Assembly: GCA_964611355.1 (NCBI GenBank) | Contig: CAZSYD010000005.1 | Span: 2,788-66,787, forward strand | DNA from: an uncultured Ignavibacteriales bacterium | GTDB lineage: Bacteria; Zixibacteria; MSB-5A5; GN15; JAAZOE01 | Direction: 5' to 3' | Length of the DNA stretch: 64,000 nucleotides | Shown here: piece by piece, positions 2,128-19,297 of the stretch | Layout: each line of letters begins with the position of its first letter | Numbering within the stretch: the first letter of the stretch is position 1 | Program-made: the position numbers and the translations under genes | The notes under the pieces: generated by a model | What the model was told of the DNA's origin: nothing | What the model saw: the letters and a program-made list of their open reading frames with translations, nothing else | The model's database searches: none

Positions 2128-4287
2128 CTAAGGTCTTTCGTATTCGCCGACAACCCGGATGATTGGCTCGAAGCGGGGGTTATCTTTGAACTGTTCGAAT
2201 TTGTCTTCGGATACGCTCAGTTTGAAATCGGCATAGGTTTTTTTAACCTTCCTGAAATCATCTCTGGCAAAATAATTGAGCATTAAATAATGATATACCT
2301 CGGGAATATTTGGGTCGGCATCGTGCGCATTACGCAGATATTTATCGGCCCATTTGTTTTTATGCATGGAGAAGTAAAGCTTGCCCAATTCGAAGTTGGC
2401 GCGGAAGTTATTCTTATCGTATTTTAATATTTCTTTATATGTCTTGATGGCCTTATCGTTATCGTTCTTATTTTTATAAAGACCCGCCATATTAATCAGC
2501 GCCGGAATTGATTTCTTGTTGAGGTCAAGACCGCCGGAGAACATCTGGCGGGCGGTTTCGTACCGCTTTTGGGATGCAAAGATTTCGCCGGCCCGAACAT
2601 AATCGTTTTCCGCCGATAAGGCGCTACCGGCGATTTGATAAGCCCTGGCCCGATTGGCGTACGCGTCGGCCATGGATGGTTTTAGATTGATCGCCTCGGT
2701 AAAATCCTCAATGGCCGAGGCTGTATTTCCATCCGTCAGCATCGCCAGACCGGATTGATAGAAATCCTCCGCCGAGTAAGTCGGCTTGGCGGGCTCCTGC
2801 TGCAATTTTTCGAGCGTAACATCCAGGACGTAGGTTTTGTTTGGTTTTAGGTTGACGGTTCCTTTCCATTTTTTATAGCCGTCTTTGGTAACCTCGACTC
2901 GATGTTTACCCGGTTTCAGCTTTTTGTACGTCAGGTTTCCGACCCCGAGAACCTGACTGCCGGCCACGAGCCTGGGACTCTCGACGTTTGATTTCAGTCT
3001 CAGCGAGGAATACTCCTTTTTTGACGCGGCTTTTTGGGTTTTTTGGGATTTCTGCGGGGGCTCCTCTCTGGTTTTTTGGGGTTGAACCTGCTGCCGGCCG
3101 GCCGATACCGGTGGAGCGGTGTAGCCGCCTGAAGAAGCGGTCGCCGACGGCCGTTCTTCTTGAAGACCAAGACTGATCATCAGGGTTGTTGTCTTGTCGT
3201 TGACTACTGAGACGTTATCCATGCCGACGGTTTCGTTTGGGGCTGAGCAACGAATGAAGTAGGTTCCGGTAGGCACGTTGTCAAAACGGAAAAAACCCTG
3301 CGCATCGGTTTTGACCTTTTTCCCCGCTTCCGGAAGGGAAACCTCACTGCCGGAAATCAGCGGGCGGCCGTCTTCGTCGAGGGCGACGCCAATAACGGAA
3401 CCGCTCCCTGGCAGAGTCGGTGAGATGAATTGCCTCCCGATCAGAAAGAGCAAAATAGCCAGCAGTGCTGAAAACGCGATAATTGTATACTGGTGTTTGA
3501 TTTTTTTCGGCTTTAATAAATAATAGCGGTCGTCGATGACCAGTTCTTCTCCTGTCGAGGGATGAACTGCGCCGGTAAGCTGGATGAAATTTTTATGGAA
3601 ATAGGCAATCCTACGTACCGAGGGAGTCTTTTGAACCCCTTCAAATGCCTGGGTTGACGGCTCGGATGAATCGGCGGCATCTGGCTGATTTTCAGGCGAC
3701 GGATCGGATGGCTGCCTTGACGTGGCGTCGTCCTCTGGATCTGCGCCCGATTCGGCTTTTTGATCGTCTTCGGGACCGGTCGGATTTTTGGGCACATTGG
3801 TCATCATCCTGGAAGCATCCTCGGGAGTGGCGCTTGAGCTTTTGTTGGGATCAGAAACGAGTGAAGACCTGATCTGTTCAGCCTGCTCGGGCGACAGCTT
3901 TTTCAGCTTATCGGTGTTTTCGTCATTCGCCCCTGCTTGGGTGTCTTCCTGACCGGCGGGCGATTCCACCTGCGGTGGAAGTGGGGATGAAGTCTGACCG
4001 ATCGGTTTATCATCCGGTTTTTCCGGGTCGGATGTTTCCTCGGCGGCTCCTATGAATTCGCCAGGATCGCAAAGCTGTATAAGTTCTTCCGAACCGCCCG
4101 ATGGCGTGGAACTATGGTCAGAATAAGAAGGAGTTCGGGCATCGGTGTTTTCTTCTTCGAGACGTACCTCGGGGGTTTCATTTTCTTCATTTTCGACGAC
4201 TTCGGCCTTTATTCTGGCGCCACAGTCGGGGCAAACGGTGGCCGATTCATCGATTATAAGATATCCGCAAACTGGACAGGTTGGCAA
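2128..4287 (-). CDS. Multidomain membrane protein: zinc-ribbon, acidic low-complexity region, TM helix, carboxypeptidase-regulatory-like and PEGA-like beta-sandwiches, TPR repeats
   Basis: 719-aa ORF. It has an N-terminal CPVC...CPDC zinc ribbon and about 200 aa of Asp/Glu/Pro/Ser-rich sequence. One TM helix (IIAFSALLAILLFLIG) follows. Then come GSVIGVALDEDGRP...FRFDNVPTGTYFIR (CarboxypepD_reg-like), GKHRVEVTKDGYKKWKGTVNL (PEGA-like) and C-terminal TPR-like repeats. Confidence 0.75.
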   Translation of the reverse strand: MPTCPVCGYLIIDESATVCPDCGARIKAEVVENEENETPEVRLEEENTDARTPSYSDHSSTPSGGSEELIQLCDPGEFIGAAEETSDPEKPDDKPIGQTSSPLPPQVESPAGQEDTQAGANDENTDKLKKLSPEQAEQIRSSLVSDPNKSSSATPEDASRMMTNVPKNPTGPEDDQKAESGADPEDDATSRQPSDPSPENQPDAADSSEPSTQAFEGVQKTPSVRRIAYFHKNFIQLTGAVHPSTGEELVIDDRYYLLKPKKIKHQYTIIAFSALLAILLFLIGRQFISPTLPGSGSVIGVALDEDGRPLISGSEVSLPEAGKKVKTDAQGFFRFDNVPTGTYFIRCSAPNETVGMDNVSVVNDKTTTLMISLGLQEERPSATASSGGYTAPPVSAGRQQVQPQKTREEPPQKSQKTQKAASKKEYSSLRLKSNVESPRLVAGSQVLGVGNLTYKKLKPGKHRVEVTKDGYKKWKGTVNLKPNKTYVLDVTLEKLQQEPAKPTYSAEDFYQSGLAMLTDGNTASAIEDFTEAINLKPSMADAYANRARAYQIAGSALSAENDYVRAGEIFASQKRYETARQMFSGGLDLNKKSIPALINMAGLYKNKNDNDKAIKTYKEILKYDKNNFRANFELGKLYFSMHKNKWADKYLRNAHDADPNIPEVYHYLMLNYFARDDFRKVKKTYADFKLSVSEDKFEQFKDNPRFEPIIRVVGEYERP

Positions 4288-8939: not shown

Positions 8940-10259
8940 ATGAAAAAGGTTTTATGGATTGTGACGCTTTTTATGCTTGTCGCAGGAGGTACGGTTTTCG
9001 CCGAAACATATACCCTCGATCAGTGTATAGAAATGGCCCGGAAGACCGATCCAAACCTGACAAAATTCCGCAATACGGTCAAGACGGCCGGAACCGCGGT
9101 CTGGCAGCGGGCCGGTCAGTTTTTGCCTTCGGTATCGGTATCCGGTTCTTATCGTAAGGTGGACCGGGGGAAGACTTCGGCGCAAATCACCGATCTCGGC
9201 GGTGGTGTAATTGAAGTGGTACCCGAGCAGCCAGCCGAAACCTATAAAAGTTATTCGGCCGGTTATTCTATTGGCCAATACGGATTCAACATTCCGGGCA
9301 AGATATGGGATTATCTCTATAGCCGGGCCAGCAAGCACGGTGCGGAATACAGTTATGCTCAGGCCATCTCCGATCTTGATCTCGTGGTCAAAACATACTA
9401 TTACCTGGTTCTAAAGGGCAAGAATGATCTCGATGTCGCCCGCGACGCGGTTGAGCGCTCCAAAGAGCTCCTGAAGGTTTTCGAGGAAAAATATGATCTG
9501 GGATCGGCATCATTATCGGAGGTGCTCAAGCAGAAGGTACAATACGGCACCGACCAGTTGACCTTGGTGAGTGCCCAAAACAATTCCCGCACCACGCGCG
9601 ATCAACTGGCTTTGACCATCGGCGTCCATCCCAGTGAAGATTTCAATGTGGCTGATCTGGAGTTGACTCGAGGGGATATCGGCGAACTACCGGGCCTAAT
9701 TGCGAGGGCCTGCGAGTATCATCCGACGCTGAAGGCGGCTGAGCAGTCGGTATCTGCCTATGGATACGCCGTACGGTCGGCCTGGAGTGATTACTTGCCG
9801 ACCATCGATATTGGATATAGTTTTGGCTGGAGCAAAAATACCTTTGATGAAATCAAGGAATTCGGGTCTGATGACCACACCGGGACATTATCTATCGGTA
9901 TCAGTATGAATATATTCGACCGGTTTTCACGCCGTTACCAGTTATCGGTGGCGAAGGTGAATCTCAATAATGCCCGGGCCAGTAAAGTTTATACGAAAAA
10001 CGAAATGATCAAGGATATAAGAGATGCCTACCTGGGTATAAAACTTGCCGAGGAAAAGCTTCAAGTCACCGAGGAGACCGAGCAGGCCGCCAGCGAGGAT
10101 ATGGATCTTGTCCAGGCCAAGTATAATCTGGGAGCGGCCGCCCTGTGGGAACTCCTTGATGCTCAGGTCAGCCTGAAATCGGCCAGTTTTGAAAAGGTCA
10201 AGGCGGAATTTGATTATAACCTGGCTTTGGCCAAGTTGAAAAACGCCATGGGAGAGTAA
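8940..10259 (+). CDS. TolC-family outer-membrane efflux channel
   Basis: 439 aa with a signal peptide (MKKVLWIVTLFMLVAGGTVFA). The TYTLDQCIEMA start and the two-repeat coiled-coil/beta pattern are typical of the TolC/OprM family. Confidence 0.85.
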   Translation: MKKVLWIVTLFMLVAGGTVFAETYTLDQCIEMARKTDPNLTKFRNTVKTAGTAVWQRAGQFLPSVSVSGSYRKVDRGKTSAQITDLGGGVIEVVPEQPAETYKSYSAGYSIGQYGFNIPGKIWDYLYSRASKHGAEYSYAQAISDLDLVVKTYYYLVLKGKNDLDVARDAVERSKELLKVFEEKYDLGSASLSEVLKQKVQYGTDQLTLVSAQNNSRTTRDQLALTIGVHPSEDFNVADLELTRGDIGELPGLIARACEYHPTLKAAEQSVSAYGYAVRSAWSDYLPTIDIGYSFGWSKNTFDEIKEFGSDDHTGTLSIGISMNIFDRFSRRYQLSVAKVNLNNARASKVYTKNEMIKDIRDAYLGIKLAEEKLQVTEETEQAASEDMDLVQAKYNLGAAALWELLDAQVSLKSASFEKVKAEFDYNLALAKLKNAMGE

Positions 10260-10290
10260 TCGTTTGAGACTATTCTGAAAGCGAGTCATA

Positions 10291-11619
10291 ATGGGAAAAA
10301 AGAAAAACAAGAAAAAATGGTTGATTATAGCGGGTGTCGTTATCGTTGTCGTCATCCTGGTGGTGGCGAATCTGACGCAGTCGAAACGGGGAACAGTAAC
10401 GGTTCAGACCAAGAAGGTTATCGTCACTGATATTACATCAATTGTTTCAGGGTCCGGCAAGGTGCAGCCTAAAACCAAAGTAAACGTGACTGCCGAGGCC
10501 ACCGCCGAGATAATCAGCATACCGGCTAACGAGGGTGATTTTGTCAGAAAAGGACAGATCTTGATTCAACTCGATACCGTTCAGTTGAAGAGAGACGTGG
10601 AATCTTATCTATATACCGCCAACGAGATGGAGGCTCACCTTGAAGGAGCAGGAGTGCTTCTGAATCAGAGCAGGGATGAATTTGAAAGGCAGAAGGAACT
10701 CTATGCCAAGAAGCTGACATCGGAGCAGGCTTTTAAAAATGCCGACTATGCTTATCGAAGTCAGAAGGCAAGTTACGACGCGATGAAACAGCAGAAGAAG
10801 GCGTCTTTTGCGCGGCTTGAAAAGGTGCGCGACCTCCTGAATAAAACGACTATTAGGGCTCCGATGGACGGTATTATTACCTGGGTGGATGCTGAGGTCG
10901 GCGAAATTGCGCAGGCCCAGACGCCTTACTCCCCCGGAAAGCCGCTGATGATCGTCTCCGATCTGTCGGAGTTTGAAGTCGAGGTGGAAATTGACGAGAC
11001 CGACATCGCCTATCTCGAGGTAGGGCAGAAATCACAGGTTGAAATAGACGCCTTTCCCGATACGTTGTTTTCCGGCGAAGTCATGGAAATCGGCAATACG
11101 GCGACTATATCCGGCATGGGCTCCAGCGATCAGGCTATCAATTTCAAGGTAAAAGTATCTCTTCTTGATGTTCACGAAAAAATCCGCCCGGGAATGTCGG
11201 CGACGGTTGATATCACAACCGATGAACGTACCAATGTCCTGGCGATACCGATTCAGGCCCTGGTGATTCGCGAATTCGACCCTGATTCACTGGAAGCCGG
11301 CGAGGATCGGGAAATCGAAGAGGAAGGCAATGCCGCGCTGGCCTCGACCATGCCGGAGGCGGAAAACGACTCGGTTACCGGCAACTCCGGCGAGAAAAAG
11401 AAAATTGAGAAAAAGGGAGTGTTTGTTAATCGCGACGGCGCTGCGAAGTTTGTTGAAGTACAAACCGGAATCTCCGATCAGACTAATTACGAAATCGTAG
11501 AGGGGCTTGAAAAGGGCGACGAGGTAATAATCGGCAGTTTCAGGATTCTGCGGACCTTGAAAAACGGGGATTTAATAGATGTTGACAATACAATGCTGAA
11601 AAGGAAAAATGAGGAATGA
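10291..11619 (+). CDS. Periplasmic adaptor (HlyD/MacA-type membrane fusion protein)
   Basis: 442 aa with an N-terminal TM anchor, a long coiled-coil segment and a [14 protein letters not shown] lipoyl/beta-barrel motif. Its stop overlaps the next gene's start by 4 nt. Confidence 0.85.
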
Positions 11620-12305
11620 GCCTGATTGAAGTAGAAGACCTTTGGAAAACATATGAGATGGGCCAGGAACAGGTCCATGCGCTGCGCGGAGTAACCTTGT
11701 CTATCGTAAAAGGGGAGTATATGGCTATTATGGGGCCTTCCGGTTCCGGAAAATCGACCCTGATGAATCTTATCGGATGTCTGGACACGCCGACCAAGGG
11801 AAGGTACCTGCTTAATTCAAGTCCGGTGGCCGATCTCAATGACGATGAACTGGCCAGAATACGCAACAAGGAAATAGGTTTTGTTTTTCAGACGTTTAAT
11901 CTTTTGCCTCGCGCTACTGCCCTGCATAACGTGGAATTGCCGTTGATATATAACGGGACATCCGGCGAAGAGCGAAAGGAGAAGGCCATTCAGGCGATGG
12001 AGACCGTCGGCCTGGCCGACAGAATGACGCACAGGCCGAATGAACTATCCGGCGGTCAGAGACAACGGGTCGCTATTGCTCGGGCGCTGGTTAATGACCC
12101 TTCGATTATTCTGGCCGACGAGCCGACCGGGAACCTGGATAGTACAACCGGCGCCGAGATTATGGATTTGATGGCGGACCTCCATAGCCGCGGAAATACC
12201 CTGATTGTAGTTACCCATGAATCCAGCGTGGCCCGACACGCCGACCGGATAATATATCTTTATGATGGCCGGATTGATAAAGAAGAAAAGAAGCCGTTCA
12301 GTTAA
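11616..12305 (+). CDS. ABC transporter ATP-binding protein (MacB/LolD family)
   Basis: 229 aa with Walker [10 protein letters not shown], signature [15 protein letters not shown] and Walker [12 protein letters not shown]. Confidence 0.92.
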
Positions 12306-12322
12306 GAAGAAAATACTTAAAC

Positions 12323-13543
12323 ATGTCGATTTTTGAATCGGTAAAAATTGCCCTGGCGGCTATTTGGGCCAATCGGTTGCGCTCTGTTCTGACTCTCCTG
12401 GGCGTTATCATCGGGGTGATGTCGGTGATAACCATTATATCGGCCATCGAGGGGCTTATGGGCAGTATCGAGGATTCGGTCAGCGCCCTAGGCCCGGCGA
12501 CTTTTATCGTCACCAAATTCGGTATAATTACATCCGATGAGGATTTTTTCAAGGCACTGAAAAGAAAGAATTTTACCGTTGAGGATATGCGGGCGGTAGA
12601 AAAGGCATGCCCCGGCTGTGAAAAGGTTGGCGGCCGGGATTTTAATCGAGCTTCGATCAAGCGCGGCAATAAGGGTCTTCGGCGGGTTTCAATTGCCGGC
12701 ACTACCGCTAATCTTTTAGATATAGTCGATATTCAATTAGCCGAGGGACGTTTTTTTACCGAGACGGAATATAATCACAAAAATCAGGTTGCCTTTGTGG
12801 GGCCGGTCATTGTTGAGGAGCTCTTCGAAGGCGTTGATCCACTGGGCAAAACGATAAAGATAAAGGGGAAAAGATTCACTGTTATAGGCATAGCAAAAAA
12901 GAGGGGATCGTTTTTAGGCAACAATCAGGATAATTTCGTCATGATTCCTCTGTCGGCTCATATTAAGATGTTTGGCAGGACACGGCGGAATTTTAATCTG
13001 ATGATAAAGTCGGCCACGATTGAAGGCATCGAGGATACGAAAGACCAGGTGCGTGCTATCCTTCGCGCCAGGCGGGGCGTCCCGTACAAAGAGGACGACG
13101 ATTTTTCCATCCTGACGGCCGATAATATTTTGAGTTTTATCGATACTATCACTCGAGGTATAAGGATCGCTTTAATCGGCATTTCATCTATCGCCCTGGT
13201 GGTCGGCGGCATTGTAATTATGAATATCATGATGGTGTCGGTAACGGAACGAACAAGGGAAATCGGTATTCGCAAATCAATAGGCGCCCGACGCAAGAAT
13301 ATTATGGTCCAGTTTCTCTTCGAGGCCCTTATTCTATCGGTAGGCGGAGGAATTATCGGAACTGCTCTCGGAATCGGCACGGCAATCGTTCTCGGTAGCC
13401 AGATTTCCCTGCCGGTAACGCCGTCTTTGTTTGCCATCATTTCAGGGATGTCAATATCCACCGGTGTGGGAGTCTTTTTCGGGCTGTACCCGGCCGTGAA
13501 AGCCTCCCGGCTGGATCCGATCGACGCTCTGCGGTTTGAATAA
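12323..13543 (+). CDS. ABC transporter permease, MacB periplasmic-domain / FtsX type
   Basis: 406 aa: N-terminal TM, large periplasmic domain, C-terminal FtsX-like 3-TM bundle (VTERTREIGIRKSIGAR). Confidence 0.88.
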   Translation: MSIFESVKIALAAIWANRLRSVLTLLGVIIGVMSVITIISAIEGLMGSIEDSVSALGPATFIVTKFGIITSDEDFFKALKRKNFTVEDMRAVEKACPGCEKVGGRDFNRASIKRGNKGLRRVSIAGTTANLLDIVDIQLAEGRFFTETEYNHKNQVAFVGPVIVEELFEGVDPLGKTIKIKGKRFTVIGIAKKRGSFLGNNQDNFVMIPLSAHIKMFGRTRRNFNLMIKSATIEGIEDTKDQVRAILRARRGVPYKEDDDFSILTADNILSFIDTITRGIRIALIGISSIALVVGGIVIMNIMMVSVTERTREIGIRKSIGARRKNIMVQFLFEALILSVGGGIIGTALGIGTAIVLGSQISLPVTPSLFAIISGMSISTGVGVFFGLYPAVKASRLDPIDALRFE

Positions 13544-13560
13544 AAAACGGTATTCGGAAG

Positions 13561-14805
13561 ATGATAAGCACAACTGAAATAAAAGACGGCATCTTCTTAG
13601 CGCTGGCCTCAATCAGAGAAAACAAGTTACGCGCCGGTTTGACTATTCTGGGAGTGCTGATTGGCGTTGCGGCCGTAATCGGGATGGCGTCTATAATTGC
13701 CGGTCTGGACAAAATGGTTATGAACGAGATCGAAAATCTTGGCTCGAATGTGCTGTACGTAACCAAATTCCCACCGGACGTCGATTACGATAAGCTGACC
13801 GAGGATGAGCGGAACCGCAAACCGATTGATTACGAGGCTGCTCAGGCGATCCGGGAACTCTGCCCGTCGGTCAACGCCGTATCGCCCCAAAACTATTATT
13901 CCGCCCTGGGCGGCAACGTCGTCAAATACAAAAACAACCAGGCTAATCGCCCCAACCTTTTCGGGACGTTGCCGGATTTTATTAAGGTCAACAATCGCTT
14001 TGTTGAAAAAGGACGATTTATCAATGATCTGGATATGCAGCGGCGAGCTATGGTATGCGTTATCGGCAATGATGTAGTCAAGGCTCTTTTCCCGAATGAG
14101 GACGCGTTAGGTAAAAACATCCGAGTTAATTCGCGGTTGTTCAGGGTAATTGGAGTCATGGAGGAAAAACCTCCCTTTTTAGGCGAATCCGATAACAATT
14201 TTATCATTCTTCCGTATTCGACCTTCGCCAAGATTCATCCGTGGGAAAAGGAATTATTCCTGCAGGTTAGCGCCGTCAACTACTCGCAAATATCCCAGGC
14301 AATCGAGGAAATCACCGCCGTTTTGCGAAACCTGCGAGGCGTCCCGTACGATAAACCGAACGACTTCGCCGTATGGACGCAGGAAAACCTGAAGGAGATG
14401 GTCGGCGATATTACGCAGTATATTTATATCGCCATGATCGTCATTTCTTCGGTGGGACTGATGGTCGGTGGAGTGGGCGTCATGAATATTATGCTGGTTT
14501 CGGTCACTGAAAGAACACGCGAAATCGGCATCCGTAAGGCCATCGGGGCTAGGAAAGTAAACATCCTGATTCAATTCCTGACCGAAGCCATGACCCTCTC
14601 CGGTTCGGGAGGAGTGATGGGAATAATTGCCGGAATTCTGCTTGCCGTTCTGGTTAAGTTAATCTTTTCAATGCCTTTCACCGTCTCTATCATATGGATG
14701 ATTATTGGATTTTCGGTTTCGGTAATGGTCGGTTTGATCGCCGGAATTTACCCTGCCTACAAAGCGGCCCGTGTTGATCCGATAATATCATTAAGATATG
14801 AATAA
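13561..14805 (+). CDS. ABC transporter permease, MacB periplasmic-domain / FtsX type (second copy)
   Basis: 414 aa, paralogous to the previous gene (VTERTREIGIRKAIGAR). Confidence 0.88.
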   Translation: MISTTEIKDGIFLALASIRENKLRAGLTILGVLIGVAAVIGMASIIAGLDKMVMNEIENLGSNVLYVTKFPPDVDYDKLTEDERNRKPIDYEAAQAIRELCPSVNAVSPQNYYSALGGNVVKYKNNQANRPNLFGTLPDFIKVNNRFVEKGRFINDLDMQRRAMVCVIGNDVVKALFPNEDALGKNIRVNSRLFRVIGVMEEKPPFLGESDNNFIILPYSTFAKIHPWEKELFLQVSAVNYSQISQAIEEITAVLRNLRGVPYDKPNDFAVWTQENLKEMVGDITQYIYIAMIVISSVGLMVGGVGVMNIMLVSVTERTREIGIRKAIGARKVNILIQFLTEAMTLSGSGGVMGIIAGILLAVLVKLIFSMPFTVSIIWMIIGFSVSVMVGLIAGIYPAYKAARVDPIISLRYE

Positions 14806-14869
14806 TTATCTTGCCTCTGCAGAGAAGGTGAGATAGATTGCAAAAGGTATAAGGAAACGGCGGTGAAAT

Positions 14870-16189
14870 GTGAGCTATTCGTGCAAAGCGGTCCGCATTA
14901 TAACCCTGCTGATGCTTGTGGCATCTTCGGGTACCAAGAGTCAGACCGGGTACCGATCGCCTGATGAGTTTGAAGAAGCTCGTTTTGTCGTTGATGCGGT
15001 TGATTTTCGTTCCAACAAGGAAGGCATCAATACCCTTGAGATATATTACAAGGTATTCTACAATGGCCTGAGTTATCAAAAAATAACCGACGGATACGAA
15101 GCGCGCTACGACGTTTCGATCGTGGTCGAGGGGAAAGACAATATACAATTGGAAGGGATTAGTCGTGCGGCACAAATTAAGGTCGATACGTATGCTGAAA
15201 CGCGACGCGAAGATGATTTTATAATTAACATGCTGGCCGTTCCGGTTGAGGAAGGTCAGGATCTCACAATCAGGGCAATCCTGACCGATAAGCTGTCTCA
15301 AACCTCGCGCGAGGTAGAAAAACGCCTCAATAAGCGTGATTACCGGGGCAAATATCCTGCGCTTTCACGAGTGCAATTTGCCCGCGAAGTTAGCCCGGCC
15401 GAAAGAAAATCGAAATTCAACAAGGGCGACCTCCGCGTAATTCCCAGCGTAACGCGTCTGTTTGGCGGGGATTCCGACAGCATTCTGAATTATTATCACG
15501 AAATATATCCGGGAAGAACAAAAGACAAGTACAGCAAACTTATCTCCCGCATTTATCATCGGGTAAAAGGATTTGTCTATGCCGATACCGTCAGGTACGG
15601 CAAAATCGAAGAGACTCAGTGTGCGGCTTGCAGTATTAACGTGAGCGATTTTATGCCCGGCTATTACGAGCTTGAACTTAGGCTTGAAGGCCGTAGGGGG
15701 AGGTTGTATAGCAAGCTTATCGAAGAATTTGAGTTGGAGTTGACAGCCGAGTCGATGTTCAAAACGGATTATAAAACGGCGGTGGAAATGTTGAAATACA
15801 TGACCACTCGCGGAGAGTATAATACGCTGAAGAACGCCAAAACCGATGAGGAGCGTCGGCGGGCATGGGATGAATTCTGGCGGCTTCGGGATGATGATAC
15901 TCACGATCGTGAAAACCCCGCCAAGCGGGAATATTTCCGGCGGGTCCGGCACTCCAACCGGTACTTCTCGGTTATGCATAAGCAGGGATGGAAAACCGAT
16001 CGTGGGATGATATATATCACTTACGGGGAACCGGATGAAGTTGAGAATTATCCATTCGAGCTGGCCACCAAGCCTTACCAGATATGGCATTATTATAAAT
16101 TAAGCCCGCCCCGCGAATTTTTGTTTGTGGACGAATGGAGTGATGGTGATTATGAACTGAAGCCCCCGTACAACGGCATCGGTTTTTAG
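14870..16189 (+). CDS. GWxTD-domain secreted protein
   Basis: 439 aa with a signal-like N-terminus. The C-terminal domain reads GWKTDRGMIYITYGEPDEV ... YQIWHYY ... FLFVDEWSDGDYEL, matching the GWxTD domain pattern. Confidence 0.8.
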   Translation: MSYSCKAVRIITLLMLVASSGTKSQTGYRSPDEFEEARFVVDAVDFRSNKEGINTLEIYYKVFYNGLSYQKITDGYEARYDVSIVVEGKDNIQLEGISRAAQIKVDTYAETRREDDFIINMLAVPVEEGQDLTIRAILTDKLSQTSREVEKRLNKRDYRGKYPALSRVQFAREVSPAERKSKFNKGDLRVIPSVTRLFGGDSDSILNYYHEIYPGRTKDKYSKLISRIYHRVKGFVYADTVRYGKIEETQCAACSINVSDFMPGYYELELRLEGRRGRLYSKLIEEFELELTAESMFKTDYKTAVEMLKYMTTRGEYNTLKNAKTDEERRRAWDEFWRLRDDDTHDRENPAKREYFRRVRHSNRYFSVMHKQGWKTDRGMIYITYGEPDEVENYPFELATKPYQIWHYYKLSPPREFLFVDEWSDGDYELKPPYNGIGF

Positions 16190-16196
16190 GAAATAT

Positions 16197-17591
16197 ATGA
16201 TAATAAAAAGAGTTTGCCTTGCCATATTAATCCTGACGCTGACAGCGTCAATTCCGGCCCGCTCGTCAGACAGCCTGACTATACAGGCCGGTTATGCCGC
16301 CTTTTATGATCTGTCGCGAAGTTCCGCCTACGTCGAATTTTATTATGGCTTATACCGTCATCAGCTCGGATTTATCGGGTCAGATACGCTCGATTATGTA
16401 TATGCCGGTGTTTTCGCGTCGGTGAAGCTGTTCGACGAATCAGGAATAGCAATTGATTCGGCTTCAACCTATTTCCTGGTACAGGCAAAAGACACTTCGG
16501 AACTGTCGCGGACCGATATCCGTCTTTTTGATTATCTTCCGATAAAGCTGGCTCCGGGGAAGTACCTGGCGGAGTTTGCTGTTATTGATGATGTTTCCAA
16601 AGCGAGCGGGACGACATTGCTGACGGTGACGGTCCCGGATTATCGCGGCGGCCAATTTGCCGGGAGCGATATAGAATTTGCCTATGAGATTCGAGAAGTG
16701 TCCGATATCCCGGCCGAGACGATTAATCAGCGTCTGGTGAAGGAAGAGCGACTGGTCGTCCCCAATCCAACCGGCATATATCAACTGAAAGGTGACAGTG
16801 TAATATTTGTTTACTCTGAATTGTATGGTCTGGATGCAGCCTCCGGAGACAATGACAGCTTTGGGGTAAGGTATTGCGTGAAAGATGCCGCCGGCAATCT
16901 GGTCCACGATTTCGGCCGGGCCGTGTTCCGTAAGCCGGGAAACTCGGCTGTGCTTTCAAATACCCTTGATATCGGCAACCTGGAACCGGGCCGGTACAAT
17001 CTCCTCCTTGAAGCCACTGATCTTGATACCAAACAGCAGACCGTAACGGCCAAGGAATTCTCGATAATTGATCCGAATGCAGTCAAGGCTCCAGATAAAT
17101 CGGATGTGGAGTTGATGATAAACATCGCCTGGTATCGTCTCAGCGAGGCCGAAAAAATCCAGATACGCAAACTTACTTCTGAAGGGCAGGTGAATTTCGT
17201 CAAGCAGTTCTGGCGGGAAATGGATGATGATCCTTCGACCCCGGAAAATCCGGTTTATGATAATACCGTTAGACAATTTGCCTTCGCCAATGACCATTTC
17301 TCAACCTTCTACGGCCGTCAGGATGGCTGGAAGACCGACCGGGGCCGGGTTTATATCACATATGGGCCGTATGATAATGAAACCGAGTTAATCCTGCCGG
17401 GGGGATCATATCCGTTGATTAAATGGGAATACTATAATATCGAAGGCGGTGTTATTTTTATCTTCGCCAGTGATGAAATAGCCGGCACCAGCAATTATCA
17501 GTTGGTTCATTCCACACATTCAGGAGAAATCTATAACCCTTACTGGATGGACAAGTTTGAAAAAGAAGCCCCGGAAGAACAGGGACGATAA
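16197..17591 (+). CDS. GWxTD-domain secreted protein (second copy)
   Basis: 464 aa with signal peptide MIIKRVCLAILILTLTASIPARS. The C-terminus reads GWKTDRGRVYITYGPYD ... IKWEYY. It starts 7 nt after the previous gene. Confidence 0.8.
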   Translation: MIIKRVCLAILILTLTASIPARSSDSLTIQAGYAAFYDLSRSSAYVEFYYGLYRHQLGFIGSDTLDYVYAGVFASVKLFDESGIAIDSASTYFLVQAKDTSELSRTDIRLFDYLPIKLAPGKYLAEFAVIDDVSKASGTTLLTVTVPDYRGGQFAGSDIEFAYEIREVSDIPAETINQRLVKEERLVVPNPTGIYQLKGDSVIFVYSELYGLDAASGDNDSFGVRYCVKDAAGNLVHDFGRAVFRKPGNSAVLSNTLDIGNLEPGRYNLLLEATDLDTKQQTVTAKEFSIIDPNAVKAPDKSDVELMINIAWYRLSEAEKIQIRKLTSEGQVNFVKQFWREMDDDPSTPENPVYDNTVRQFAFANDHFSTFYGRQDGWKTDRGRVYITYGPYDNETELILPGGSYPLIKWEYYNIEGGVIFIFASDEIAGTSNYQLVHSTHSGEIYNPYWMDKFEKEAPEEQGR

Positions 17592-17676
17592 TTGACGTCT
17601 CTAAAAATGAATTAAGAGAGAGGTCGGATGCTCGGCTGGTGTGGCGGCATGGTGATTGACATTTGATTTTATCGTC

Positions 17677-17710
17677 AGCCTGAAATCCGGTTAAATATCC
17701 GGCTTTTTTG
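17677..17710 (+). terminator. Rho-independent terminator candidate (end of the 8180-17591 operon)
   Basis: AGCC..GAAAT / ATATC..GGCT form an imperfect stem, followed by TTTTTT at 17704-17709. Confidence 0.4.
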
Positions 17711-17732
17711 CGTGTATTAGTTTGAGGAGCAC

Positions 17733-18110
17733 TTATTCCTTCGGTTGCCCGCCGCAATAGCCTTCTCCACAGGTCCCTGTGCATTCGAAACCCTGGGGCT
17801 TTATTTTTGTTCCGACCAAAAATCCCCGCTGGTCGGGGCCGTTATCAATAAAGTCAACGACAACACCCCCCAGCGGTTTCAACTGCTCGGCGATGTCAGT
17901 ATGTATATGAATCTGTATGCCGTTCGACTCATAGATACTATAGCTGTCATCCGGTTCATCCACAGCCAGTCCCAGAACGGGGCCGCTGCATCCAAAACCC
18001 GTGAAATTAATAAAAAGTCCTTTTCCTTTGTATTGTTCCATCTGGAGGACTTTATTTATTTCCGAGCCGGCCGAATCGGAAATTTCCACCATCTTTTCTA
18101 TTCTCCCCAA
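17733..18110 (-). CDS. HesB/IscA-like Fe-S cluster biogenesis domain protein with Cys-rich C-terminal tail
   Basis: 125 aa. ISDSAGSEINKVL ... FINFTGFGCSGPVLGLAVDE resembles the IscA/HesB GGGCSG region. The C-terminus CTGTCGEGYCGG differs from the canonical CGCG ending. Confidence 0.6.
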   Translation of the reverse strand: MGRIEKMVEISDSAGSEINKVLQMEQYKGKGLFINFTGFGCSGPVLGLAVDEPDDSYSIYESNGIQIHIHTDIAEQLKPLGGVVVDFIDNGPDQRGFLVGTKIKPQGFECTGTCGEGYCGGQPKE

Positions 18111-18230
18111 TATGCCTGATTGCTGCCTGTAAGGGTTAAATCAGGCGTGATATTCGTGTTTCCCCGGTTTTCAGGCAACTCCTGTTAATTTCTGAGGTAT
18201 TATAATAAATATCAGAAGAAGGTAAAGCCC

Positions 18231-18271
18231 AAAAGTAAAAAACCCGCCAAAGATTGAATACTCGGCGGGTT
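18231..18271 (-). terminator. Rho-independent terminator candidate
   Basis: On the minus strand AACCCGCC / GGCGGGTT form an 8-bp stem (15-nt loop) followed by TTTTACTTTT. It starts 26 nt after the TAA at 18297-18299. Confidence 0.5.
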
Positions 18272-18296
18272 AGTTAAGTTAATCCGGATTCCTGCC

Positions 18297-19061
18297 TTAA
18301 TGTTTGTCGCCCGATTTCCCGGAGGCCTCGTTATTGCCTGAAGGAGATTTCGTATTGGCCGTCTTTACTCGCTGGGAAACCACAAAAGTGAAGCGGGAAT
18401 TGGCGGCATCGTTAAGCTCGAGGGTTATGGATTTCTCGAAACTTTTTTTTACGAAATCATCGGCGGCTTTTATCCTGCATTTGACAATTTTACCCGACTT
18501 AACAGTCTCGGGGACATCAATATCGAAATACCCATACGGCTTATACGCCACTTGTATTTCAAGGTCTTCGTCCGAAACGTTGGCAATCGTGAATTCGCTT
18601 CCGTCTTCCTTAACCGTACCGCCTTCATCAAGAAGTATCCTGGACGGATTGATTACAATCGGGTAGGTGGAATCGGGCTGCTGAACCACATAAGCCTCGA
18701 CCGATACATTCCTTGGCCTACTACCCTCGTTGGTGGTTATCCTCGGCTTACTGGATTTTCTAAGGCCGCGTGTTCCGATTATAAGAATAATTTCAAGCTC
18801 GGTGCTGTCGCCGACAGCAAGCTCCGTTTTCTTGATAGGAGCTTTGGTACAGCCTCACCCGGTCTTTATATTGATAATCTTGAGGGTGTCGTCACCAACC
18901 GATTTTATCCAGAAAACATGGCCTATCTTGCTGCTCTGAGGCACATAACCAAAATCGAACTTTTCCTCAGCGAGATACATCTTTGGCTGCGCCATGACAG
19001 ATGAAAACAGCAGGAAAAGCGCCAGTACTAAAAAAGCGGCCAAAAACCAGATATTGCGCAT
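18297..19061 (-). CDS. Secreted DUF1573-like protein with a single in-frame TGA at codon 69 (proposed selenocysteine; otherwise a nonsense-disrupted gene)
   Basis: Track ORFs 18855..19061 and 18297..18689 are in the same frame. My translation of the gap between them has no other stop. The start reads GGAGGACTAATG and the signal peptide is MRNIWFLAAFLVLALFLLFSSVMA. The domain reads FDFGYVPQSSKIGHVFWIKSVGDDTLKIINIKTG-TGA-GCTKAPIKKTELAVGDSTELEIIL...ITTN. This matches the DUF1573 pattern, with the TGA at the first Cys of SCGCT. Confidence 0.6.
18795..18844 (-). other. Two adjacent mRNA hairpins immediately 3' of the in-frame UGA (SECIS-like candidate)
   Basis: On the mRNA, AAGCUCC (+14..+20 from the U of UGA) pairs perfectly with GGAGCUU (+33..+39) around a 12-nt loop. 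It is directly followed by GCUGUC-GGC-GACAGC (+40..+54). A second GAGCUU at +58..+63 could pair with AAGCUC instead. Confidence 0.35.
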
Positions 19062-19297
19062 TAGTCCTCCGAGTAAAGCAGTCTCTCTTTATCCTGTTTC
19101 TATACTATTCGGCCTGATTGGTTCCCGCTCAAGTCGATCAGGCACAACTATATTAAATTTAACGATTTTCTCTTTCAAGTCAAGTGGAATACTGTATCAA
19201 GCGCTTATCATGACCAGATTTAAGACATTCTCTCAAGGCGGGATTTAATTTCTTGGGATCATTCCGAAACATAGTGTATTAGAATGGCAACCGGACA

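What the first reader, a model, noticed from the sequence alone, without database searches (positions are those of the whole stretch)
18297..19061. In-frame UGA at the first Cys of the SCGCT motif in a secreted DUF1573-like protein: candidate new selenoprotein
A single minus-strand frame runs from GGAGGACTAATG (ATG at 19061) to TAA at 18297-18299 and is then followed by a terminator. It is interrupted only by TGA at 18855-18857 (codon 69). Upstream of the TGA lie a signal peptide and FDFGYV...GHVFWIKSVGDDTLKIINIKTG. Downstream the frame reads GCTKAPIKKTELAVGDSTELEIIL...ITTN. This tracks the DUF1573 pattern (FDFG..h.F.h.N.G...L.I..v..SCGCT....i.PG....i.v......tN), so the UGA falls where the family has the first Cys of its CxC pair. 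The result would be a U-G-C selenylsulfide-type motif. After the UGA come 185 further sense codons with no stop; (61/64)^185 is roughly 1e-4 for random sequence. TGA works as a normal stop elsewhere in the window (argS, dinB, aroB, aroE end where homologs end), so this is local recoding or a very recent nonsense lesion, not a reassigned code. A Sec/Cys pairing at a conserved redox Cys is the classical signature used to find selenoproteins. I do not recall DUF1573 being catalogued as a selenoprotein family.
Basis: partly seen in the sequence, partly recalled or inferred. Interest (0 to 1): 0.8.

Follow-up and report, generated by a model that had tools for sequence, protein, structure and literature searches.

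The report
Known-family selenoprotein gene in Zixibacteria
The in-frame UGA is almost certainly a real selenocysteine codon in a secreted DUF1573 protein, but this family (OS_HP2/DUF1573, U-G-C motif) has been listed as a selenoprotein family since 2007, so it is a new lineage-specific member and not a new family.

Summary
A 254-codon minus-strand gene (19061..18297) has one in-frame TGA at 18857..18855, and it matches Pfam DUF1573. The TGA lies at the first Cys of the invariant C-G-C motif. It is not an error or a recent lesion. The same TGA is present in 37 distinct orthologous sequences from more than 30 genome assemblies, including independent metagenome copies at 100, 98 and 84% identity. 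dN/dS downstream of the TGA is 0.33. Two RNA hairpins follow the TGA only in the Sec forms. The second (GCUGUC-GGN-GACAGC) is invariant even at synonymous sites in 36 of 37 Sec forms, and fully paired in only 2 of 80 Cys forms. In close relatives the neighbouring HesB-like gene is also a Sec/Cys pair, so the clade decodes Sec. DUF1573 (OS_HP2, UxC/UGC) was reported as a selenoprotein family in 2007 and 2008 and is listed in reviews from 2022 and 2026, and NCBIfam has a model for it. What is new is modest: a two-domain Zixibacterial subfamily that public annotation splits into two ORFs, a two-hairpin SECIS that only partly fits the consensus model, and frequent Sec/Cys switching. Sec machinery genes could not be searched.

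The parts
18297..19061 (-). Complete selenoprotein gene: 254 codons including UGA-Sec at codon 69, with a TAA stop
   Evidence: orthologs with the same architecture
19066..19070 (-). Shine-Dalgarno GGAGG, 4 nt upstream of the ATG
18990..19061 (-). Signal peptide, codons 1-24 (MRNIWFLAAFLVLALFLLFSSVMA|QPK). There is no lipobox Cys, so the protein is predicted to be exported by the Sec translocon
   Evidence: Sequence. The AF2 model of the ortholog has an N-terminal helix at residues 2-19. The cleavage site is inferred from the VMA-Q pattern
18855..18857 (-). UGA codon 69, read as selenocysteine (first position of U-G-C)
   Evidence: Aligned to invariant Cys69 in 54 Cys orthologs. TGA is at the same column in 37 distinct sequences
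18849..18851 (-). UGU codon 71, the invariant partner Cys of the U-G-C motif
18819..18844 (-). Hairpin H1 (AAGCUCC-12 nt-GGAGCUU), starting 11 nt after the UGA. Its sequence varies among orthologs but stays paired
   Evidence: 83% paired; double-sided changes at pair 18-35; meets the bSECIS model in 26 of 37 orthologs, but not in the window copy
18804..18818 (-). Hairpin H2 (GCUGUC-GGC-GACAGC) with a GG apical loop. It is invariant in the Sec forms, including synonymous sites, and is the most likely SelB-binding element
   Evidence: (36 of 37 Sec forms fully paired against 2 of 80 Cys forms; fixed codons GCT GTC GGN GAC AGC)
18687..18974 (-). DUF1573 (PF07610) Ig-like domain, residues 30-125, carrying the U-G-C motif
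   Evidence: the AF2 model of the ortholog has pLDDT 92
18366..18674 (-). Second Ig-like beta-sandwich domain, approximately residues 130-232
   Evidence: weak resemblance to 2qsv
18237..18270 (-). Intrinsic terminator (CCCGCC...GGCGGG plus T6) after the stop codon
17733..18092 (-). Neighbouring IscA/HesB-like gene. It is the Cys form here (TGC at 17988-17990), but a TGA (Sec) form in close relatives, so it is a conserved partner gene and a proxy for Sec decoding in the clade

Best explanation
The gene encodes a genuine bacterial selenoprotein. It is a secreted protein with two Ig-like domains, and its N-terminal DUF1573 domain carries a U-G-C motif in place of the family's invariant C-G-C. 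When the ribosome reaches UGA69, a structured element inside the coding sequence recruits SelB-GTP-Sec-tRNA(Sec), so selenocysteine is inserted and release factor 2 does not terminate. This element consists of a variable hairpin H1 followed directly by an invariant hairpin H2 with a GG apical loop (inferred). The 254-residue precursor is exported and its 24-residue signal peptide is removed (inferred). In the mature protein, Sec69 and Cys71 most likely form a reversible selenenylsulfide or a soft-metal/chalcogen binding site on a non-enzymatic Ig-like scaffold (inferred, low confidence). The gene belongs to the already catalogued DUF1573/OS_HP2 selenoprotein family. It represents a Zixibacteria-type two-domain subfamily in which Sec and Cys forms interconvert often.
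For: 1. The Sec/Cys pair sits at an invariant Cys.
2. TGA lies at the identical column in 37 distinct sequences from more than 30 assemblies sharing 31-100% protein identity. These include independent metagenome copies at 100, 98 and 84% identity with otherwise intact frames.
3. dN/dS downstream of the UGA is 0.33 between the window and L006, with no indels or stops.
4. The RNA structure is specific to the Sec forms. MFE over nt 10-57 is -18.7 kcal/mol in Sec forms against -11.4 in Cys forms (p = 7e-15), despite lower GC. H2 is fully paired in 36 of 37 Sec forms against 2 of 80 Cys forms, and its synonymous codons are fixed only in Sec forms. H1 is 83% paired against 29-59% with slid partners, and it shows compensatory changes.
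5. Closely related Cys forms have either just switched and still keep both hairpins (L065_3001) or have lost H2 through synonymous changes (L014_165).
6. The adjacent HesB-like gene has a TGA at its Cys column in L001, L002, L009, L010, L092 and L095, followed by a similar two-hairpin, GG-loop structure. These genomes therefore decode Sec in at least two families.
7. The family is already documented as a selenoprotein family with the same motif.
Against: selA, selB, selD and tRNA-Sec could not be looked for in the window's genome. None is present in the 64 kb window or in the 1.33 Mb of related DNA held. Neither hairpin of the window copy satisfies every constraint of the published bSECIS model. 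H1 has a 12-nt loop without a leading G, and the H2 loop lies 42 nt from the UGA whereas the model allows 16-37 nt. No Rfam family matches. There is no experimental evidence for Se incorporation. The protein scores below the NCBIfam OS_HP2 cutoff (67.9 against 100 bits). The proposed chemistry of the U-G-C site is inference only.
Confidence: 0.9

Rival explanations
1. The TGA is a recent nonsense mutation, an assembly error or a sequencing error, and the gene is a decaying pseudogene.
For: A single in-frame stop in one window cannot by itself be distinguished from a lesion. Public gene callers split the gene into two ORFs.
Against: The same TGA is found in independent assemblies and samples at 100, 98 and 84% identity, and in 37 distinct orthologs. 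No additional frame disruptions occur in any of them. Downstream dN/dS is 0.33. The RNA structure is maintained only where the TGA is present.
Confidence: 0.01
2. UGA69 is read through or recoded to a standard amino acid (Cys, Trp or Gly) without selenium. Possible routes are hairpin-stimulated near-cognate read-through or a Sec-to-Cys recoding variant of the SelB/tRNA system.
For: The Sec machinery was not demonstrated. The hairpin spacing is atypical for the consensus bSECIS. Sec and Cys forms interchange readily.
Against: The UGA always aligns with a redox/metal Cys, and the family is a catalogued selenoprotein family with the same motif. A second known selenoprotein family (HesB-like) carries a UGA at its Cys in the same genomes. 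The G-rich apical loops match the hallmark of SelB-binding elements.
Confidence: 0.06
3. Translation terminates at the UGA, and the downstream part is a separate gene that starts at an internal start codon. The result would be two small proteins.
For: Gene callers produce a 66-68 aa ORF plus a 150-186 aa ORF.
Against: The split cuts the DUF1573 beta-sandwich in the middle. Codons between the UGA and the first possible restart are conserved as protein (GCTKAP..ELAVGDSTELEII). The window copy has no start codon until GTG at 18689, which is 55 codons downstream. The called internal starts differ between orthologs.
Confidence: 0.02
4. The organism uses a genetic code in which UGA is a sense codon everywhere.
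For: None beyond the in-frame TGA itself.
Against: About 21 of 50 long ORFs in the window end at TGA. The DinB-like gene ends at TGA with the same 409-aa length as its ortholog. No other TGA-interrupted coding frame was found in the window.
Confidence: 0.01

Closest known systems
OS_HP2 / DUF1573 selenoprotein family (Zhang & Gladyshev 2007, PMC1976440; GOS 2008, PMC2398784; reviews PMC9312934 and PMC13188914; NCBIfam NF041425)
   Same: It has the same Pfam domain (PF07610) and the same U-x-C / U-G-C motif at the family's conserved CxC. Cys homologs are in the majority. It was predicted purely by Sec/Cys pairing, and its function is unknown.
   Different: The window protein scores 67.9 bits, below the 100-bit cutoff of NF041425. 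It has a second C-terminal Ig-like domain and a signal peptide. It comes from Zixibacteria-type MAGs, not from deltaproteobacterial symbionts or ocean samples. It is followed by a two-hairpin element. Public annotation does not mark this subfamily as a selenoprotein.
HesB-like selenoprotein family (TIGR01911 HesB_rel_seleno; NF038090 IscA_HesB_Se)
   Same: The gene immediately downstream is of this type and is a Sec/Cys pair in the same clade. Its UGA is followed by a similar two-hairpin, GG-loop structure.
   Different: It is a different fold and is cytoplasmic, with no signal peptide. In the window itself this gene is the Cys form and its second hairpin has decayed.
Consensus bacterial SECIS (bSECISearch model as summarised in PMC13188914, Fig. 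2)
   Same: It is a stem-loop inside the ORF just 3' of the UGA. It has a small apical loop with G in the first positions and an MFE below -7.5 kcal/mol. H1 satisfies all four constraints in 26 of 37 orthologs.
   Different: The invariant element H2 lies 42 nt from the UGA, outside the 16-37 nt range. In the window copy H1 has a 12-nt loop without a leading G. There are two adjacent hairpins where the model has one.
ASH/HYDIN/PapD-like Ig domains (PF22544) and the uncharacterised P. gingivalis protein 2qsv
   Same: The predicted fold is a tandem beta-sandwich.
   Different: Those proteins have no CxC/UxC site. No solved structure matches the DUF1573 CxC domain by sequence.

Membership tests
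Pfam PF07610 (DUF1573) | HMM score above the gathering threshold | tested here: met
   61.9 bits against 26.1, residues 30-125 matching profile positions 3-98 of 98
Pfam PF07610 (DUF1573) | Conserved CxC motif (PGCGCT), with the UGA at the first Cys | tested here: met
   C69 and C71 are invariant in 54 orthologs, and the window has TGA at 69 and TGT at 71
NCBIfam NF041425 OS_HP2 family (seleno)protein | Score at or above the curated cutoff (100 bits) | tested here: not met
   67.9 bits. It is the best NCBIfam hit but falls below the cutoff, so this is a related DUF1573 subfamily and not OS_HP2 in the strict sense
Bacterial selenoprotein (general criteria) | In-frame UGA aligned with Cys in homologs (Sec/Cys pair) | tested here: met
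Bacterial selenoprotein (general criteria) | UGA conserved in orthologs from several organisms, with intact frames | tested here: met
   37 distinct sequences from more than 30 assemblies; downstream dN/dS of 0.33
Bacterial selenoprotein (general criteria) | SECIS stem-loop immediately downstream of the UGA that fits the bSECIS model (loop 3-9 nt, G in the first two loop positions, 16-37 nt spacing, MFE <= -7.5) | tested here: inconclusive
   Sec-specific conserved hairpins are present. H1 fits the model in 26 of 37 orthologs but not in the window copy. H2 fits except for its 42-nt spacing.
Bacterial selenoprotein (general criteria) | Genome encodes selA, selB, selC (tRNA-Sec) and selD | not testable with these tools
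   None is in the window or in the 1.33 Mb of flanks held. The rest of the genomes cannot be read. Indirect support comes from a second selenoprotein family in the same genomes.
Bacterial selenoprotein (general criteria) | Selenium incorporation shown experimentally | not testable with these tools
   This requires 75Se labelling or mass spectrometry

The most novel reading that the evidence does not exclude
The two-hairpin element may be a distinct class of bacterial SECIS used by Zixibacteria for both the DUF1573 and the HesB-like selenoprotein genes. It consists of a variable H1 and an invariant GG-loop H2, whose 42-nt distance from the UGA is outside the consensus model. On this reading, the conserved DUF1573(Sec)/HesB-like(Sec) gene pair next to the GWxTD proteins and a MacB-type exporter forms a previously unrecognised selenium-dependent envelope module for redox or metal/chalcogen handling.
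Probability: 0.2. Interest if true: 0.5.

Novelty: new member of a known kind. Interest (0 to 1): 0.3.

Why it matters
This is a clean, well-supported example of Sec recoding in a poorly studied candidate phylum. It has practical value for annotation. Across public databases this subfamily is split into a 66-68 aa ORF and a truncated 'DUF1573 domain-containing protein', because it scores below the NCBIfam OS_HP2 cutoff. It also offers a natural experiment of about 37 Sec forms against 80 Cys forms, including tandem paralogs and fossil SECIS elements. That set can be used to study how SECIS elements are gained, maintained and lost, and how far a SelB-binding loop can lie from the UGA. It does not reveal a new selenoprotein family or a new mechanism.

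Tried and rejected
- Rfam scans found no SECIS and no tRNA-Sec, either at gathering thresholds over the whole window or at E <= 10 on 18740-18900.
- ARAGORN on the window and on 60 loci found no tRNA-Sec.
- I ran tblastn with E. coli SelA, SelB and SelD against all DNA held. The single hit, in L015, turned out to be IF-2 followed by nrnA/truB, not SelB.
- Looking up the window's LexA to find the source genome returned only JGI/Logan contigs of 3.7 kb or less, so the rest of the genome is out of reach.
- A scan for other TGA-interrupted frames in the window found only adjacent genes that happen to share a frame.
- RNAalifold on the Sec set recovered H2 but not H1. H1 shifts register between orthologs, so H1 was assessed with an explicit structure and with per-sequence folds.
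- Sequence and profile searches of the PDB found no solved DUF1573 CxC domain.
- I ran no further search on SelB or SelA. The top-120 listing would be filled with close relatives of any query I could supply and would not link back to these genomes.
- The literature search for Zixibacteria plus selenocysteine returned nothing relevant.

Full report
**Observation.** The minus strand carries a gene with Shine-Dalgarno GGAGG (19070..19066), ATG at 19061..19059 and TAA at 18299..18297. It is followed by a stem plus T6 terminator at 18270..18237. The 254-codon frame is interrupted only by TGA at 18857..18855, which is codon 69. With Cys substituted at codon 69, the protein matches Pfam PF07610 (DUF1573) at 61.9 bits against a cutoff of 26.1, over residues 30-125. 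It also matches the overlapping HYDIN/VesB-like Ig model. TGA is an ordinary stop elsewhere in the window. About 21 of 50 long ORFs end in TGA, and the DinB-like gene ends at 409 aa like its ortholog in L001. No other TGA-interrupted coding frame was found in the window.

**Not an error and not a lesion.** A protein search returned about 100 full-length Cys orthologs of 235-257 aa, mostly labelled Zixibacteria. It also returned a second group of 150-186 aa 'proteins' that all begin just after the motif. The DNA behind these fragments always shows a 66-68 aa ORF, then TGA, then the fragment, in a single frame reading PG-TGA-GCT(K/Q)AP. Independent metagenome contigs at 100%, 98% and 84% protein identity to the window gene also carry the TGA in otherwise intact frames. 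Across all loci fetched, 37 distinct Sec-form sequences were recovered. They come from 27 GTDB species-representative assemblies, 5 further assemblies, and metagenome contigs. The same loci yielded 80 Cys-form genes, 72 with TGC and 8 with TGT. Between the window and the 84% ortholog L006, the 185 codons after the UGA differ at 31 synonymous and 40 nonsynonymous sites. There are no indels or stops, dS is 0.30 and dN/dS is 0.33. The downstream part is therefore translated and under purifying selection.

**Recoding signal.** Positions are numbered from the U of the UGA.
- Every Sec form has two adjacent hairpins. H1 pairs nt 14-20 with nt 33-39 (window 18844..18819). H2 pairs nt 40-45 with nt 49-54 and reads GCUGUC-GGN-GACAGC (window 18818..18804).
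- H2 encodes A-V-G-D-S. All 37 Sec forms encode exactly this peptide with fixed codons: GCT 37/37, GTC 37/37, GAC 37/37 and AGC 36/37. Only the loop Gly codon is free.
- The Cys forms mostly encode APGDS or AAGDS with mixed codons. Only 2 of 80 have all six pairs, against 36 of 37 Sec forms.
- MFE over nt 10-57 is -18.7 kcal/mol in Sec forms and -11.4 in Cys forms (p = 7e-15), although the Sec set has lower GC.
- On a gap-free alignment, H2 is 100% paired. H1 is 83% paired in a fixed register, against 29-59% when the 3' partner is slid. Pair 18-35 shows double-sided changes, from U-A to G-U, G-C or A-U, in 9 sequences. One example is a synonymous Ala change (GCU to GCA) that compensates a Glu-to-Val change (GAG to GUG).
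- Close Sec/Cys relatives show the expected dynamics. The tandem paralog L065_3001 (TGC) still carries both hairpins base for base. L014_165, at distance 0.11 from the Sec form in L011, has already lost H2 through synonymous changes.
- No Rfam family matches. This is expected, because bacterial SECIS elements are heterogeneous (PMC13188914).

**Fit to the published SECIS model.** The consensus model has four criteria: an apical loop of 3-9 nt on a 4-16 bp stem, a G in the first two loop positions, 16-37 nt between the UGA and the loop, and MFE of -7.5 kcal/mol or lower (PMC13188914 Fig. 2). H1 meets all four in 26 of 37 Sec forms, with spacing of 19-21 nt. It fails in the window copy, which has a 12-nt loop (UAUCAAGAAAAC). 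H2 meets the loop, G, stem and energy criteria in 36 of 37, but its loop lies 42 nt from the UGA in all 37. I cannot tell which hairpin binds SelB. The invariance of H2 and its rapid loss in Cys forms make it the better candidate, with H1 acting as a compact spacer. This is inference.

**Independent evidence that the clade decodes Sec.** No selA, selB, selD or tRNA-Sec lies in the window or in the 1.33 Mb of related DNA held. The one SelB-like tblastn hit is IF-2. The rest of these genomes cannot be read with the tools available. However, the gene immediately downstream of the DUF1573 gene is informative. It lies at window 18092..17733, and its best NCBIfam hits are NF038090 IscA_HesB_Se and TIGR01911 HesB_rel_seleno, both below their cutoffs. 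It has TGC at its GFG-C-SGP motif in the window and in L006. In L001, L002, L009, L010, L092-94 and L095 it has TGA at that position. There the TGA is followed by a similar two-hairpin arrangement, whose second hairpin GGCUC-UGGAU-GAGCC is invariant and has GG in its loop. HesB-like proteins are a long-known selenoprotein family (PMC9312934). L009 combines HesB-Sec with DUF1573-Cys, and the window combines HesB-Cys with DUF1573-Sec, so the two genes switch independently within a Sec-competent clade. In the window the HesB hairpin has decayed, while both DUF1573 hairpins are intact in the window and in L006. This argues that the DUF1573 UGA is still actively decoded in the window's lineage.

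**The protein.** Residues 1-24 form a typical signal peptide with no lipobox. An AlphaFold2 model of the 50%-identical Cys ortholog P0001 is confident, with mean pLDDT 92.2 and pTM 0.82. It shows two beta-sandwich domains. Foldseek matches ASH/HYDIN-type Ig domains of ciliary central-pair proteins, CEP192 SPD-2 domains and the uncharacterised P. gingivalis protein 2qsv. None of these is an enzyme or a thioredoxin fold. No solved structure matches the CxC domain by sequence or profile. Apart from C69 and C71, the nearly invariant polar residues are Q42, H48, S86, T87, K104 and N111. My best guess is a surface U-G-C site on an extracytoplasmic binding scaffold that acts either as a reversible selenenylsulfide or as a soft-metal/chalcogen ligand. 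The adjacency to an IscA/HesB-type carrier with a Cys-rich tail is compatible with this guess. No functional data for DUF1573 exist in the searchable literature.

**Context.** The synteny is conserved: TolC-like, HlyD, ABC ATPase and two MacB/FtsX permeases (8940-14805), two GWxTD proteins (14870-17591), the HesB-like gene, the DUF1573 gene, DUF3187 (19298-20305), then LexA, DUF6504 and a DinB-like polymerase. Relatives often carry tandem arrays that mix Sec and Cys paralogs, as in L010, L013, L065 and L088. A neighbour-joining tree of 116 sequences interleaves the two states, with about 18 parsimony changes. That tree is built from short proteins and is only indicative.

**Comparison with what is known.** The family is already catalogued. 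OS_HP2 was reported from the Olavius symbiont metagenome with 2 Sec sequences (PMC1976440). It was equated with pfam07610, motif UxC, in the GOS survey, which found 2 Sec and 354 Cys sequences (PMC2398784). [quoted passage not shown] NCBIfam NF041425 'OS_HP2 family (seleno)protein' is the top NCBIfam hit at 67.9 bits, below its 100-bit cutoff. The window gene is therefore a member of the known DUF1573 selenoprotein family in the broad sense, but of a different, two-domain, Zixibacteria-type subfamily. The curated model does not capture this subfamily, and public annotation splits it; NCBI, for example, names the 186-aa 3' piece P0060 simply 'DUF1573 domain-containing protein'.

**Verdict.** The selenoprotein reading is strongly supported, with confidence of about 0.9 that UGA69 is decoded as Sec through a SelB/SECIS mechanism. 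The claim of a new selenoprotein family is not supported. The incremental points are the breadth of Sec forms in Zixibacteria, the two-hairpin element that only partly fits the consensus bSECIS model, the linked HesB-like Sec/Cys gene, the rapid Sec/Cys turnover with fossil SECIS elements, and the systematic misannotation. Interest is modest (0.3), and the novelty class is 'new member of a known kind'.

Noticed in passing
window 17733-18092 (-), Cys codon at 17988-17990; L001 ~3854, L002 ~3826, L009 ~1495, L010 ~12722, L092 ~2332, L095 ~1638: The IscA/HesB-like gene directly downstream of the DUF1573 gene is itself a Sec/Cys pair. It has TGC in the window and L006, and TGA in six related genomes, where two hairpins follow (the second, GGCUC-UGGAU-GAGCC, is invariant). 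The window copy has lost that hairpin, while L006 keeps it as a fossil.
   Followed up: partly
L010 (9281, 10183, 11036), L013 (9337, 10198, 11086), L065 (2005, 3001), L088-L091 (502-2013), L004 (1980-3507): Relatives carry tandem arrays of DUF1573 paralogs that mix Sec and Cys forms. In L065 the Cys paralog still has both SECIS hairpins base for base, which suggests a very recent TGA/TGC switch.
   Followed up: partly
window 8940-22776: A gene neighbourhood is conserved across relatives. It runs TolC-like/HlyD/ABC/MacB-FtsX exporter, two GWxTD-domain proteins, the HesB-like gene, the DUF1573 gene, DUF3187, and then a LexA-DUF6504-DinB-like cassette. Any functional link between them is unknown.
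   Followed up: partly
public protein records P0056-P0120; L001 2776-3561, L002 2776-3537: Gene callers and NCBI annotation split every Sec form of this subfamily into a 66-68 aa ORF plus a 150-186 aa 'DUF1573 domain-containing protein'. In L001 a spurious opposite-strand ORF (3927-4133) is called over the HesB-like selenoprotein gene.
   Followed up: yes
L011, L015, L016, L018, L023 and other loci from 'binchicken' TPA assemblies: Many loci with clear orthologs and Zixibacteria-like synteny are titled 'uncultured Ignavibacteriales/Ignavibacteriaceae bacterium' by their submitters. The taxonomic labels may be unreliable.
   Followed up: no
L030 10993-11358, L035 6449-6817: A tmRNA gene (tag GESNYAMAA) lies just downstream of one Cys-form DUF1573 paralog in two genomes. 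This is probably coincidental.
   Followed up: no
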